DNA of 64,000 nt from Candidatus Moraniibacteriota bacterium (lineage in GTDB: Bacteria > Patescibacteriota > Minisyncoccia > Moranbacterales > UBA2206). Under the pieces are notes generated by a model. The model made no database searches. It was given only the letters and a program-made list of their open reading frames with translations, and had not been told where the DNA came from. Where the stretch lies: NCBI GenBank assembly GCA_030645735.1, contig JAUSNP010000003.1, positions 167,411-231,410 on the forward strand. Direction: 5' to 3'. Position numbers and translations under genes: made by a program. The number at the start of each line of letters is the position of its first letter. The stretch's first letter is position 1. Below are positions 44,801-46,211 of this stretch, in pieces.

Positions 44801-45412
44801 GTTTCCGCTGGAGACAAAACAACCACTGTCAAAATCGAAATGGCAGGCAAAACTGCGACTGTCAAAGAATATGAAATTCCAATGGGAAGCACAGTCAAAG
44901 TGGCGCAAGGTGATTTGGTTGGCAAAGGCTCAAAACTTTCTGAAGGAAACATTGATCTCAAAAAGCTTTACAAAATCATGGGATGGGAAGCAGTACATAG
45001 ATATATCGTACAAGAAATTCAAGAAATCTATGCTTCTCAAGGTGAAGGAATCAATGACAAGCATATCGAAGTTATCATCAAGCAGATGTTTAGTCGATTG
45101 CAAATCACTGAGTCTGGAGCTACAACCTTGATGGGTGGCGATATCATTGAAAAAGAACAATTCAGAGAAGCCAATGAAAAAGCCAAAGCTGATGGTGGAG
45201 AGCTGGCAACTGGAGAAGAATTGTTGATGGGAATCACGAAAGTGGCTCTTTCAACTGAAAGTTTCCTATCCGCTGCTTCTTTCCAAGAAACCGCTCGAGT
45301 GCTCATCAACGCTGCTGTTGAAGGCAAGGTTGATCACTTGAGAGGACTCAAAGAAAACGTAATCATCGGAAAATTGATTCCAGCTGGAACTGGATATCGA
45401 TCAGATAAGTAA
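41837..45412 (+). CDS. rpoC: DNA-directed RNA polymerase subunit beta'
   Basis: 1191 aa; zinc finger [23 protein letters not shown]; catalytic NADFDGDQM. Confidence 0.98.
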   Translation: [1191 protein letters not shown]

Positions 45413-45436
45413 AGACGCAAGATATTGCGTCTCTAC
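45409..45436. repeat. REP-like hairpin 1 (GTAAAGACGC-aagatatt-GCGTCTCTAC), overlaps rpoC stop codon
   Basis: One stem mismatch relative to the GTAGAGACG...CGTCTCTAC family. Confidence 0.6.
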
Positions 45437-45483
45437 GAAAAAAGAAAAACCGCTCAGGAATGGGCGGTTTTTTTGTTGGAAAA

Positions 45484-45512
45484 TTGACATGAAATATATT
45501 GGTGGTATTATA
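45484..45512 (+). promoter_or_regulatory. sigma70-like promoter TTGACA-N17-ATTATA upstream of RAYT gene
   Basis: ttgacatgaaatatattggtggtattata. Confidence 0.45.
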
Positions 45513-45542
45513 TCATCGAATGTGTGTGCATATGAAACAATG

Positions 45543-45570
45543 GTAGAGACGGATTGCAATCCGTCTCTAC
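45543..45570. repeat. REP-like hairpin 2 (GTAGAGACGGATTGCAATCCGTCTCTAC), perfect palindrome
   Basis: Read directly from the sequence. Confidence 0.8.
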
Positions 45571-45592
45571 AGGCAAAATAAAAATCACAACC

Positions 45593-46171
45593 ATGTCTAA
45601 CAAATACAAAAGCCAATATAAAATCGAATCATCGCGATTGGCTGGATATGATTATTCCCAGAATGGAATGTATTTCGTGACGATTTGTACAAAAGGTCGG
45701 GAAGAATTTTTTGGTAGGATAGAGGAGGGGGAAATGGTGTTGTCGGGGATTGGGGAAATTGCCAATCAATTTTGGCAGGAAATTCCGAAACATTTTCCAA
45801 AGGTTATTTTAGATGAATATGTAATAATGCCAAATCATTTACATGGGATTGTGGAAATTAACAACGATAGATTGAATGTGGATGCCCGTAGAGACGAGGC
45901 AATGCCTCGTCTCTACACCGGCCAACACCTCGAGATGTCTGAAATATCACCAAAACCAGGTTCATTATCGGTTATTCTGGGATCATTTAAATCAATTGTT
46001 TCAAAAACCACTAGAAAACAATTAAATCCTGTCACCTTCGCCTGGCAACCTCGTTTCTACGACCACATCATCCGCAACGACGTTTCTCTCAACAAAATCC
46101 GTGAATATATTCAGACCAATCCGGCGATGTGGGAACGGGATCGGAATAATGTCGAAAATTTGTGGATGTAG
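45593..46171 (+). CDS. REP-associated tyrosine transposase (RAYT; IS200/IS605-like Y1 HUH transposase)
   Basis: SSRLAGYDYSQNGMYFVTICTKGRE N-terminus; HUH motif MPNHLHGIV; conserved Tyr region WQPRFYDHIIR; flanked by cognate REP hairpins. Confidence 0.75.
   Translation: MSNKYKSQYKIESSRLAGYDYSQNGMYFVTICTKGREEFFGRIEEGEMVLSGIGEIANQFWQEIPKHFPKVILDEYVIMPNHLHGIVEINNDRLNVDARRDEAMPRLYTGQHLEMSEISPKPGSLSVILGSFKSIVSKTTRKQLNPVTFAWQPRFYDHIIRNDVSLNKIREYIQTNPAMWERDRNNVENLWM
45888..45916. repeat. REP-like hairpin 3 (GTAGAGACGAGGCAATGCCTCGTCTCTAC) located in-frame inside the RAYT CDS
   Basis: Encodes ...RRDEAMPRLY... between the HUH and Tyr motifs. Confidence 0.8.
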
Positions 46172-46182
46172 GCGTTTGCCAG

Positions 46183-46211
46183 GTAGAGACGCCCCGCCGG
46201 GGCGTCTCTAC
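46183..46211. repeat. REP-like hairpin 4 (GTAGAGACGCCCCGCCGGGGCGTCTCTAC) just 3' of RAYT
   Basis: Read directly from the sequence. Confidence 0.8.

What the first reader, a model, noticed from the sequence alone, without database searches (positions are those of the whole stretch)
45409..46211. RAYT (REP-associated tyrosine transposase) gene with four cognate REP hairpins, one embedded in-frame within its own CDS
CDS 45593..46171 has the HUH (NHLHGIV) and Tyr (RFYDHIIR) motifs and the RLAGYDYSQNGMYFVTICT N-terminus of RAYT/IS200-like Y1 transposases. Four inverted repeats share the same 9-10 bp arms GTAGAGACG...CGTCTCTAC with different palindromic cores. They lie at the rpoC stop (45409), between the promoter and the RAYT start (45543), inside the RAYT ORF between the HUH and Tyr motifs (45888, encoding RRDEAMPRLY) and just 3' of the gene (46183). 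REP elements normally lie outside genes. An in-frame REP within the transposase that presumably mobilises it is unusual. It suggests either self-targeting insertion tolerated in a linker or a regulatory hairpin within the mRNA. No further copies of this REP occur in the remaining 63 kb, so the family may be small or young here.
Basis: partly seen in the sequence, partly recalled or inferred. Interest (0 to 1): 0.65.

Follow-up and report, generated by a model that had tools for sequence, protein, structure and literature searches.

The report
RAYT transposase gene carrying its own REP
A small bacterial gene for a domesticated hairpin-cutting enzyme (a RAYT) sits among four copies of the DNA hairpin it presumably recognises, one of them inside its own coding sequence. 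That odd arrangement is real, but it is an already published hallmark of this enzyme subclass.

Summary
Four palindromes with the foot GTAGAGACG/CGTCTCTAC lie at 45409, 45543, 45888 and 46183, and nowhere else in the 64 kb. They surround and interrupt, in frame, a 192-aa HUH/Tyr gene from a Candidatus Moranbacteria genome.

The gene is a REP-associated tyrosine transposase (TnpA_REP). Its best structural match is E. coli TnpA_REP (4ER8).

The in-frame REP between HUH and Tyr, and the "double-foot" GTAG…CTAC hairpin, are described hallmarks of TnpA_REP subclass 2.4 (RAYT group 4; Quentin et al. 2018). I confirmed this at DNA level:
- 36 of 63 distant metagenomic relatives carry such a hairpin in the same linker.
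- It occurs in two reading frames and never in the third, which would read TAG.

So this is a new member of a known kind.

Beyond the literature I could read:
- The intragenic hairpin is invariant at all ten third-codon positions across six genes that are only 65–84% identical.
- Its inner stem co-varies with the adjacent DNA-binding helix. The two are exchanged together as a central cassette between otherwise about 90% identical genes.
- The window's three flanking REPs carry inner stems different from the intragenic one.

The parts
45409..45436 (.). H1: degenerate double-foot REP (GTAAAGACG...CGTCTCTAC). Its TAA (45410-45412) is the rpoC stop codon.
   Evidence: DNA fold -8.9 kcal/mol, z -5.2.
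45440..45477 (+). Context only: rpoC terminator-like hairpin followed by a T-run. It separates H1 from the RAYT promoter.
   Evidence: Inverted repeat I4, 17-nt arms, 82% complementary. The T-run is read directly from the sequence.
45484..45511 (+). Near-consensus sigma-70-like promoter: TTGACA, 16 nt, TATTAT, with TG before the second hexamer.
   Evidence: 11 of 12 matches. This is a consensus match only; no transcription data.
45543..45570 (.). H2: perfect 28-nt double-foot REP in the 5' leader, inner stem GATTG/CAATC.
   Evidence: Homology with the 85%-identical gene L081 begins at this hairpin.
45593..46171 (+). RAYT / TnpA_REP gene, 192 aa, subclass 2.4-like.
   Evidence: Pfam Y1_Tnp 26.2 bits. 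NCBIfam REP_Tyr_transpos 64 bits, below its cut-off of 80. 100% identical to a Candidatus Moranbacteria MAG protein, with 1827 homologues. AF2 model pLDDT 79.6. Top PDB fold match is 4ER8.
45836..45844 (+). HUH motif (H82-L83-H84).
   Evidence: H82 and H84 are invariant in 35 sequences and align with the HMH (H59/H61) of 4ER8.
45869..46012 (+). Variable central cassette, residues ~93-140: linker, REP-encoded peptide, class-specific spacer and DNA-binding helix. Boundaries are approximate.
   Evidence: Mosaic breakpoints in L081 vs L208 and in window vs L208/L210. Helix identity is uncorrelated with the N and C parts.
45888..45916 (.). H3: perfect 29-nt double-foot REP inside the CDS, codons 99-108 (RRDEAMPRLY), inner stem AGGCA/TGCCT.
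   Evidence: Identical except for the apex base in five relatives. Third-codon positions invariant 10/10 against 36/175 elsewhere. It lies in a coil segment (DSSP) within residues 91-120, whose block-mean pLDDT is 52-60.
45965..46021 (+). Helix 125-143, the counterpart of the DNA-binding helix alpha3/alphaC of E. coli TnpA_REP. K133 is invariant.
   Evidence: DSSP on the model and K133 invariance. In 4ER8 the hairpin contacts R78 and K82 lie between HUH and W94 (PMC3479197; PMC8266576). The residue-level mapping is inferred.
46043..46075 (+). WQ strand (W151 Q152 ... D157 ... R161), equivalent to the GTAG-binding residues of 4ER8.
   Evidence: Residue roles come from PMC6006769 and PMC8266576.
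46106..46120 (+). Catalytic Tyr motif Y172-I-Q-T-N176 (E. coli Y115...N119).
   Evidence: Y172, I173 and N176 are invariant.
46183..46211 (.). H4: perfect 29-nt double-foot REP 12 nt after the stop codon, inner stem CCCCG/CGGGG. The palindrome extends to 46181-46213.
   Evidence: Absent from the 85% relative L081. The identical 29-mer occurs in two Chloroflexota genomes, L098 and L116.

Best explanation
This is a REPtron. It consists of a resident, single-copy RAYT/TnpA_REP gene of subclass 2.4 (RAYT group 4) in a Candidatus Moranbacteria genome, with four 'double-foot' REP hairpins (GTAGAGACG - 5-bp variable inner stem - loop - CGTCTCTAC).

Shown:
- The protein has the HUH/Y1 fold and the catalytic residues H82, H84, Y172 and N176, plus the GTAG-binding residues W151, Q152 and R161.
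- H3 sits in a low-confidence surface linker between the HUH strand and the DNA-binding helix.
- A hairpin at this place is the rule for this subclass.
- It is conserved as nucleotides, not as peptide.

Inferred:
- On single-stranded DNA the enzyme binds the GTAG foot with its conserved N- and C-terminal parts. It reads the upper stem and loop with the variable helix 125-143.
- It cuts and rejoins next to the hairpin, so REP copies accumulate in and around its own gene.
- Copies survive inside the gene only in the tolerant linker, and only in the two frames that avoid the TAG of the foot.
- The intragenic copy is then kept perfect, either by selection or by continual copy-correction through the enzyme's own activity. 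It travels with the gene as a resident cognate substrate.
- H1, H2 and H4 share the foot but not the inner stem. They are most simply relics of, or imports from, RAYT cassettes of other specificity.
For: Identity of the gene. Pfam Y1_Tnp is above its cut-off and the best NCBIfam hit is REP_Tyr_transpos. 4ER8 is the best sequence match and the best fold match (E 1.1e-6, TM 0.52/0.59). The motifs are invariant.

Subclass. Length is 192 aa against about 194. The motifs are NHLH / WQ / YIQTNP. There is a variable insertion between the HUH strand and the next helix, double-foot REPs, and a REP in frame in the gene. All are as described for subclass 2.4.

The hairpin is the rule. A perfect-foot hairpin lies between HUH and WQ in 36 of 63 metagenomic relatives at 38-52% identity.

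DNA unit, not peptide. GTAGAGACGTTGCATGCAACGTCTCTAC is read as VETLHATSLH in some genes and as RRDVACNVST in others. Frame use is 32:16:0, and the unused frame contains TAG.

Nucleotide-level maintenance. In six genes with 65-84% nt identity, H3 differs only at its apex base. All ten third-codon positions are invariant, against 36/175 outside the hairpin and 26/81 in aa-invariant columns.

Tolerant site. Block-mean pLDDT is 52-60 over residues 91-120, and the REP-encoded residues 99-108 are coil by DSSP.

Resident gene. GC is 0.40, the same as the window, with one copy in the window. rpoC...RAYT...ftsK synteny holds with L209 and L210, whose ftsK is about 64% identical.

The REP family is real and dispersed. 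Of 130 hairpins with this foot sampled from many phyla, 122 have no RAYT within their 8-kb stretch.

Local REPs match the gene. The intragenic and extragenic inner stems match in 10 of 14 loci, against a permuted mean of 1.4 (0/5000 permutations reach it).
Against: - No activity, binding or transcription data exist for this protein or any subclass 2.4 member that I could find.
- The NCBIfam equivalog cut-off is not reached (64 vs 80 bits).
- Within 64 kb the REPs occur only at the RAYT locus. Most close CPR relatives show no extragenic copy within 3 kb. A 'REP-spreading' role is therefore not evident in this lineage.
- The window's flanking REPs do not share H3's inner stem. Either the inner stem is not a specificity determinant, or these copies are not this enzyme's products.
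- Perfect conservation of H3 could in part reflect selection on the peptide. That is unlikely given the synonymous sites, but only six genes were compared.
- Degenerate intragenic copies also exist in relatives (L207, L208, L210), which shows decay does happen.
Confidence: 0.72

Rival explanations
1. Neutral passenger. H3 is simply a REP that landed in a flexible loop of the RAYT and is tolerated. It has no role and no constraint of its own. This is the reading offered by Quentin et al. 2018 and Di Nocera et al. 2013 for intragenic REPs.
For: - The linker has low model confidence and variable length: 48-107 residues between HUH and WQ.
- Relatives carry 0 to 5 copies and decayed copies (L028, L054, L207, L208, L210).
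- Some homologues lack the hairpin peptide altogether, for example P0114.
- The published view is that the region is peripheral to the active site.
Against: - H3 is nucleotide-perfect across six genes that differ at 16-35% of other positions, with 10/10 invariant third-codon positions.
- This holds although the neighbouring ftsK is only 64% identical.
- A neutral 29-mer would have accumulated stem mismatches, as H1 has.
Confidence: 0.25
2. mRNA regulatory hairpin. H2 (leader), H3 (mid-CDS) and H4 (3' end) act at the RNA level. They would throttle translation, stabilise the transcript or terminate it, keeping a potentially genotoxic nuclease at low level.
For: - RNA folds are very stable: -19.9, -24.4 and -30.5 kcal/mol, z about -7 to -8.
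- H2 lies between a near-consensus promoter and the ATG, and H4 lies 12 nt after the stop codon.
- REPs are known 3' mRNA stabilisers in E. coli (literature cited in PMC3733652).
Against: - The hairpins are perfect Watson-Crick palindromes with a foot on both ends, so they are identical on both DNA strands. An RNA element needs neither feature.
- The same hairpins are dispersed far from any RAYT in many genomes.
- H4 has no adjoining T-run.
- Close relatives lack H2 and H4 equivalents yet keep H3.
- No Rfam family matches at gathering score.
Confidence: 0.12
3. An ordinary IS200/IS605-type insertion sequence. The gene would be an autonomous TnpA, with H2 and H4 as its left and right end hairpins, recently inserted between rpoC and ftsK.
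For: - It shares the fold and Pfam family with IS608/ISDra2 TnpA.
- The gene is bordered by hairpins.
- Close relatives sit in different contexts: after murC, ftsX or Bro-N.
- Homology with L081 starts at the upstream hairpin.
Against: - The best sequence and fold match is TnpA_REP (4ER8), not IS608.
- The GTAG-footed hairpins are of the REP type.
- There is one copy in 64 kb and no tnpB.
- Composition equals the host's.
- The rpoC...RAYT...ftsK position is shared with relatives whose housekeeping genes are 64-78% identical, with RAYT divergence to match (68%). That indicates vertical descent.
- H4 is missing in the 85% relative.
Confidence: 0.05

Closest known systems
TnpA_REP subclass 2.4 REPtrons (Quentin, Siguier, Chandler, Fichant 2018, BMC Genomics 19:475; equals RAYT group 4 of Bertels et al. 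2017)
   Same: - A protein of about 194 aa with NHxH / WQ / YIxxNP motifs.
- A hypervariable insertion between the HUH strand and the next helix.
- 'Double-foot' REPs with 5' GTAG and 3' CTAC.
- REPs inserted in frame inside tnpA_REP between HuH and Y.
- GTAGAGAC-type REPs are listed in their Table S1.
   Different: - The host is a CPR/Patescibacteria (Moranbacteria) genome rather than Cyanobacteria or Bacteroidetes.
- REPs are seen only at the locus within 64 kb.
- The four local REPs have four different inner stems.
- Nucleotide-level invariance of the intragenic copy and its coupling to the adjacent helix were not reported in the texts I could read.
E. coli TnpA_REP (YafM) with its REP/BIMEs, PDB 4ER8 (Messing et al. 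2012; Ton-Hoang et al. 2012; Corneloup et al. 2021)
   Same: - HUH + single Tyr fold.
- Conserved W-Q...R GTAG-binding residues.
- A GTAG tetranucleotide at the hairpin foot.
- A gene flanked by REPs.
- Single-copy, housekeeping-like behaviour.
   Different: - E. coli REPs are imperfect, bulged, single-foot and strand-specific, and none lies inside the gene.
- E. coli has only about 30 residues between HUH and WQ, against 66 here.
- The E. coli C-terminal regulatory tail is absent here.
- Sequence identity over the fold alignment is 16%.
IS200/IS605 TnpA (IS608, ISDra2)
   Same: - Same Y1 HUH fold.
- Single-strand hairpin recognition.
- A tetranucleotide guide 5' of the hairpin (PMC8266576).
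   Different: Those are multi-copy autonomous insertion sequences, often with tnpB and with distinct left and right ends. Here there is one resident copy, no tnpB, REP-type hairpins and vertical synteny.
Intragenic palindromic repeats in other genes (GTAG/CGTC REPs in uvrA, recB and others, Di Nocera et al. 2013; Rickettsia palindromic elements)
   Same: Short palindromes inserted in frame in coding regions, tolerated in loops and adding about 10-30 residues.
   Different: Those hit unrelated host genes at scattered sites. Here the site is one fixed linker of the very enzyme family that handles the repeat, recurrently across phyla.

Membership tests
RAYT / TnpA_REP (HUH Y1 nuclease) | HUH metal-binding motif on a beta-strand | tested here: met
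   NHLH, with H82 and H84 invariant in 35 sequences. It aligns to the HMH of 4ER8 and lies on strand 82-89 in the model.
RAYT / TnpA_REP (HUH Y1 nuclease) | Single catalytic Tyr on the C-terminal helix, with the downstream Asn | tested here: met
   Y172 and N176 align with Y115 and N119 of 4ER8. Both are invariant. They lie on helix 163-184.
RAYT / TnpA_REP (HUH Y1 nuclease) | GTAG-binding residues (W94, Q95, R104 of E. coli) | tested here: met
   W151, Q152 and R161 are invariant. Residue roles come from PMC6006769 and PMC8266576.
RAYT / TnpA_REP (HUH Y1 nuclease) | Fold of TnpA_REP | tested here: met
   The top Foldseek PDB match is 4er8_A (E 1.1e-6, prob 1.00, TM 0.52/0.59), followed by IS608 and ISDra2 TnpA. 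Model pLDDT is 79.6.
RAYT / TnpA_REP (HUH Y1 nuclease) | Curated profile thresholds | tested here: inconclusive
   Pfam Y1_Tnp scores 26.2 bits, above its cut-off of 23. NCBIfam equivalog REP_Tyr_transpos scores 64 bits, below its cut-off of 80.
RAYT / TnpA_REP (HUH Y1 nuclease) | Gene flanked by REP hairpins with a 5' GTAG foot | tested here: met
   H1 and H2 lie upstream and H4 downstream.
RAYT / TnpA_REP (HUH Y1 nuclease) | Cognate REPs dispersed at many sites in the same genome | tested here: inconclusive
   There is no copy outside the locus in 64 kb, and the rest of the 233-kb contig and the genome were not available. The same foot is dispersed in many other genomes.
RAYT / TnpA_REP (HUH Y1 nuclease) | Single-copy, vertically inherited (housekeeping-like) behaviour | tested here: met
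   There is one copy in the window with host-like GC. rpoC...RAYT...ftsK synteny holds with L209 and L210, with matching divergence. Other relatives sit elsewhere.
RAYT / TnpA_REP (HUH Y1 nuclease) | Cleavage and strand transfer of single-stranded REP DNA | not testable with these tools
   This needs biochemistry.
TnpA_REP subclass 2.4 (Quentin 2018) / RAYT group 4 | Length about 194 aa; motifs NH[IFV]H, WQ, YIxNNP | tested here: inconclusive
   The protein is 192 aa with NHLH (L is not in the published set), WQ and YIQTNP (T where the consensus has N). The authors' subclass HMM was not available.
TnpA_REP subclass 2.4 (Quentin 2018) / RAYT group 4 | Insertion of variable length and sequence between the HUH strand (beta3) and alphaC | tested here: met
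   The HUH-to-WQ distance is 48-107 residues among relatives. The linker is hypervariable in the alignment and has low pLDDT.
TnpA_REP subclass 2.4 (Quentin 2018) / RAYT group 4 | 'Double-foot' REPs (5' GT[AG]G and 3' C[TC]AC) | tested here: met
   H2, H3 and H4 have perfect double feet, and H1 has one mismatch.
TnpA_REP subclass 2.4 (Quentin 2018) / RAYT group 4 | REP inserted in frame inside tnpA_REP between HuH and Y | tested here: met
   H3 covers codons 99-108. The same holds in 36 of 63 metagenomic relatives and in five of the seven distinct close-relative genes examined; the other two (L207, L210) carry only decayed copies.
IS200/IS605 insertion sequence | Several near-identical copies per genome, distinct left and right end hairpins, often tnpB | tested here: not met
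   There is one copy in 64 kb and no second Y1 ORF. No tnpB-sized neighbour is present; the neighbours are rpoC and ftsK. The locus is syntenic in diverged relatives.

The most novel reading that the evidence does not exclude
In subclass 2.4 RAYTs the intragenic REP may not be a stray insertion. It may be one half of a swappable specificity cassette: the hairpin (the substrate) and, about 20-35 codons downstream, the DNA-binding helix that reads its upper stem (the reading head). The two are encoded side by side and exchanged together between RAYT genes. The conserved N- and C-terminal parts read the invariant GTAGAGACG foot. The intragenic copy is kept nucleotide-perfect as the resident master copy of the REP type that the enzyme propagates. 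Flanking REPs with other inner stems (H1, H2 and H4 here) would record earlier or neighbouring cassettes.
Probability: 0.35. Interest if true: 0.6.

Novelty: new member of a known kind. Interest (0 to 1): 0.3.

Why it matters
As found, it matters little.

The side observations could matter more. They are a REP kept nucleotide-perfect inside its own enzyme's gene, and the coupling of that REP to the adjacent DNA-binding helix in a cassette that is exchanged as a unit.

If confirmed, they would give a concrete, testable handle on two points:
- how RAYTs and REPs co-evolve their specificity;
- why RAYTs persist as single-copy resident genes. This is an open question in the REP/REPIN field, where no in vivo mobilisation mechanism has been shown.

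Tried and rejected
- Coincidental palindrome from a conserved peptide. Rejected: the same hairpin DNA is read in two frames, giving unrelated peptides, and synonymous sites are invariant.
- Known RNA family. Rfam gave only sub-threshold chance hits, all in the 45394-45606 region; none reaches 45888.
It gave taxonomic breadth and location relative to RAYTs, but no per-genome count. The rest of the 233-kb source contig could not be fetched.
- Recombination between the HUH half and the Tyr half at the hairpin. Rejected: N- and C-part identities are positively correlated (r = 0.43). It is the central segment that is discordant.
- Simple vertical orthology of all close relatives. Rejected: the 85% relative sits after murC, not after rpoC. 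Two recurrent positions exist.
- Residue-level mapping of helix 125-143 onto R78/K82 of 4ER8. The sequence profile does not align this segment, so the equivalence rests on position in the fold only.
- The fixed-offset helix comparison is crude (AUC 0.67). The alignment and the pair list show the coupling more clearly.

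
Full report
**1. What is there**

The sequence shows four palindromes that share the 9-bp foot GTAGAGACG / CGTCTCTAC:
- H1, 45409-45436. It has one foot mismatch (GTAAAGACG) and an imperfect core.
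- H2, 45543-45570, a perfect 28-mer.
- H3, 45888-45916, a perfect 29-mer.
- H4, 46183-46211, a perfect 29-mer whose palindrome extends to 46181-46213.

The 28-nt pattern is expected zero times in shuffled sequence. Every exact copy of the 9-mer in the 64 kb belongs to these four hairpins.

As single strands the hairpins fold far better than shuffles:
- DNA: -8.9 to -18.3 kcal/mol, z = -5.2 to -8.4.
- RNA, H2-H4: -19.9 to -30.5 kcal/mol.

H1 begins one base before the rpoC stop codon, so the TAA at 45410-45412 is bases 2-4 of the foot. A T-run hairpin (45440-45477) and a near-consensus promoter-like site (45484-45511) follow. H2 lies in the leader, 22 nt before the ATG at 45593. H3 occupies codons 99-108 (RRDEAMPRLY). 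H4 starts 12 nt after the stop codon.

**2. The gene**

The 192-aa product is 100% identical to a protein of a Candidatus Moranbacteria MAG and has 1827 homologues at E <= 1e-5.

Profile and structure evidence:
- It passes Pfam Y1_Tnp.
- Its best NCBIfam hit is REP_Tyr_transpos, at 64 bits against a cut-off of 80.
- The only PDB sequence match of its family profile is E. coli TnpA_REP, 4ER8.
- An AlphaFold model (pLDDT 79.6) finds 4ER8 as its best fold match, followed by IS608 and ISDra2 TnpA.

The alignments give these residue equivalences with 4ER8:

| This protein | E. coli TnpA_REP (4ER8) | Role |
|---|---|---|
| H82 / H84 | H59 / H61 | HUH motif |
| W151, Q152, R161 | W94, Q95, R104 | GTAG-binding residues |
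| Y172, N176 | Y115, N119 | Catalytic Tyr and downstream Asn |

All of these are invariant in 35 relatives. The catalytic Tyr is in REYIQTNP.

**3. The in-frame REP is a published hallmark**

Quentin et al. 2018 (PMC6006769) describe TnpA_REP subclass 2.4, which equals RAYT group 4 of Bertels et al. 2017. Their description includes:
- proteins of about 194 aa with NH[IFV]H / WQ / YIxNNP motifs;
- 'double foot' REPs carrying 5' GT[AG]G and 3' C[TC]AC;

Their Table S1 already contains 25 occurrences of GTAGAGAC. The window locus matches each of these points. The kind is known; the host phylum (CPR) is the new element.

**4. DNA-level confirmation in relatives**

- Among 63 metagenomic loci whose RAYT ORF I could delimit (38-52% identity), 41 carry a double-foot hairpin inside the ORF. 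In 36 of them it lies between HUH and WQ.
- The foot is mostly the same GTAGAGACG.
- The same nucleotide hairpin is translated in two frames. For example, GTAGAGACGTTGCATGCAACGTCTCTAC is read as VETLHATSLH or as RRDVACNVST.
- Frame use is 32:16:0. The unused frame would read TAG.
- The conserved unit is therefore the DNA, not the peptide.

**5. The REP family is real and broad**

The hits came from Cyanobacteria, Bacteroidota, Chloroflexota, Omnitrophota, Geobacteraceae, Acidobacteriota and others. Of the 130 hairpins:
- 5 lie inside a RAYT ORF;
- 3 lie next to one;
- 122 have no RAYT within their 8-kb stretch.

H4's exact 29-mer recurs in two Chloroflexota genomes. H3's recurs, with the complementary apex base, in an Omnitrophota genome.

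**6. Behaviour in close relatives**

H3 conservation. Five further genes at 64-85% protein identity keep H3 at the same codon position, differing only at the apex base (A or T). In the codon alignment of the six genes:
- all ten hairpin codons have invariant third positions;
- this compares with 36/175 elsewhere and 26/81 in columns where the amino acid is invariant;
- pairwise nucleotide identity outside the hairpin is 65-84%.

Flanking hairpins are much less constant. There is one upstream in L081, one upstream in L209, and none within 3 kb in L082, L084 and L086.

Genomic context:
- The window, L209 and L210 share rpoC...RAYT...ftsK.
- L081 and L208 share murG-murC-RAYT-ATPase.
- Others sit elsewhere.

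Between the window and L209 the identities are ftsK 64%, the rpoC 3' end 78% and the RAYT N-part 68%. This fits vertical descent of a resident gene. There is one RAYT in the window, and its GC equals the window's.

**7. A lead beyond the papers I read**

The variable region is larger than the REP peptide. It is a central cassette of roughly residues 93-140 that includes helix 125-143.

Mosaic structure:
- L081 and L208 sit at the same locus, with murC 77% and murG 75% identical. They are 90-91% identical in the RAYT N- and C-parts, but essentially unalignable in the cassette, with sharp boundaries.
- Across 120 proteins, helix identity is uncorrelated with N-part identity (r = 0.13) and C-part identity (r = -0.04). 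N and C correlate with each other (r = 0.43).
- Of 74 protein pairs with N >= 75% and C >= 80% identity, 36 have helix identity below 60%; in the 25 lowest-identity pairs that were printed, the REP-encoded peptide class switches together with the helix class.

Coupling of helix class to the hairpin's inner stem:

| Helix class | Hairpin inner stem |
|---|---|
| SPKPGSLSVIxGSFKSIVSK | AGGCAwTGCCT |
| ISPKxGSLSxIIRSYKSAV | TTGCATGCAA |
| FGPQSxNLASIIRGFKIGV | CAAGATTTTG |
| WKPGxLGVIINQYKR | CCCAAwTTGGG |
| NPMLxxNLSxIIRWYKGR | CGATTAATCG |

Sameness of inner stem is predicted by helix identity (AUC 0.67; 0/2000 permutations reach it). It is not predicted by the N part (AUC 0.50) or the C part (AUC 0.48).

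Why the helix is a plausible reading head. In E. coli TnpA_REP the base-specific hairpin contacts R78 and K82 lie between HUH and W94, in the 'conserved DNA binding alpha3 helix' (PMC3479197; PMC8266576). Those authors propose that this helix reads the loop or stem in other groups. The cassette may therefore pair a substrate with its reading head. That equivalence is positional inference only, because the sequence profile does not align this segment.

Is the coupling more than linkage?
- Physical linkage alone could explain coupling within the cassette.
- However, the upstream extragenic REPs of L081 and L208 each match their own cassette, across about 300 nt of 90%-identical coding sequence.
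- Over all loci, the intragenic and extragenic inner stems match in 10 of 14 cases, against 1.4 expected.

The window is one of the four exceptions. H1, H2 and H4 carry stems that elsewhere accompany other helix classes. H4's type matches the cassette class seen at the same locus in L210 and resembles the upstream hairpin of L209.

**8. Mechanism**

Shown: the identity, fold and catalytic residues of the protein; the position of H3 in a low-confidence loop; its recurrence across the subclass; its nucleotide-level maintenance; and the local matching of REP types.

Inferred:
- The enzyme binds the foot with its conserved parts and the upper stem with the variable helix.
- It cuts and rejoins single-stranded DNA beside the hairpin, as E. 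coli TnpA_REP does in vitro.
- It therefore seeds copies in and around its own gene.
- Intragenic copies persist only in the tolerant linker and in stop-free frames.
- They are then kept perfect by selection or by enzyme-driven copy-correction.

Rivals:
- A purely neutral passenger. The synonymous-site invariance argues against it.
- An mRNA regulatory hairpin. This is possible for H2 and H4, but the two-strand symmetry and the dispersal away from RAYTs argue for a DNA element.
- An ordinary IS200/IS605. This is rejected on copy number, synteny, hairpin type and best structural match.

**9. Verdict**

The cassette and maintenance observations are the part worth a specialist's second look. They rest on a few dozen loci and need the tests listed under next steps.

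Noticed in passing
window 45409-45412: The 5' foot of H1 supplies the rpoC stop codon: AAG-TAA-AGA-CG. The canonical foot GTAG would give TAG, so the single foot mismatch (G to A) keeps a stop. The syntenic relatives L209 and L210 have no hairpin at the rpoC end.
   Followed up: partly
window 45543-45570, 46183-46211, 45409-45436 vs 45888-45916: The four local REPs have four different inner stems: GATTG, CCCCG, CAAGA (imperfect) and AGGCA. In 10 of 14 other loci the flanking and intragenic REPs share the inner stem. H4's exact 29-mer occurs in two Chloroflexota genomes (L098, L116). H3's occurs in an Omnitrophota genome (L105).
   Followed up: partly
L081:3001-3579 vs L208:3001-3633: Two RAYT genes at the same murG-murC-RAYT-ATPase position are about 90% identical at the nucleotide level in their N and C parts. 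That is more than the neighbouring murC (77%) and murG (75%). They have a completely different central cassette and different flanking intergenic DNA.
   Followed up: partly
L054:3333-4490, L028:4992-5711, L207:3001-3720; proteins P0004, P0008, P0012, P0090: Some relatives carry arrays of 3-5 whole or decayed REP copies in the linker, lengthening the protein to as much as 385 aa (L054; the listed P00xx proteins are 215-253 aa). In L207 and L210 the two feet of a hairpin are separated by extra sequence, as if a hairpin had been split or the copies had decayed.
   Followed up: partly
L081-L086, L207-L210 (Moranbacteria-like contigs): Close relatives of the window's RAYT recur at two chromosomal positions: rpoC...ftsK and murC...cation ATPase. 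Yet the window's gene (at the rpoC locus) is 85% identical to a murC-locus gene and only 64% identical to an rpoC-locus gene. This suggests paralogues that exchange sequence.
   Followed up: no
window 45543-45570 and the other REPs: From my own knowledge, not tested: each REP foot contains CGTCTC/GAGACG, the recognition sequence of the type IIS enzymes BsmBI/Esp3I. Every hairpin therefore carries two inverted sites.
   Followed up: no
window 51300-51333; also 27388-27418, 8078-8107, 1599-1632: There are other long perfect palindromes in the window. Several have A-runs and T-runs on either side, for example AAAACAAAAAACACC-TCGC-GGTGTTTTTTGTTTT, and look like bidirectional intrinsic terminators. 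They are unrelated to the REP foot.
   Followed up: no
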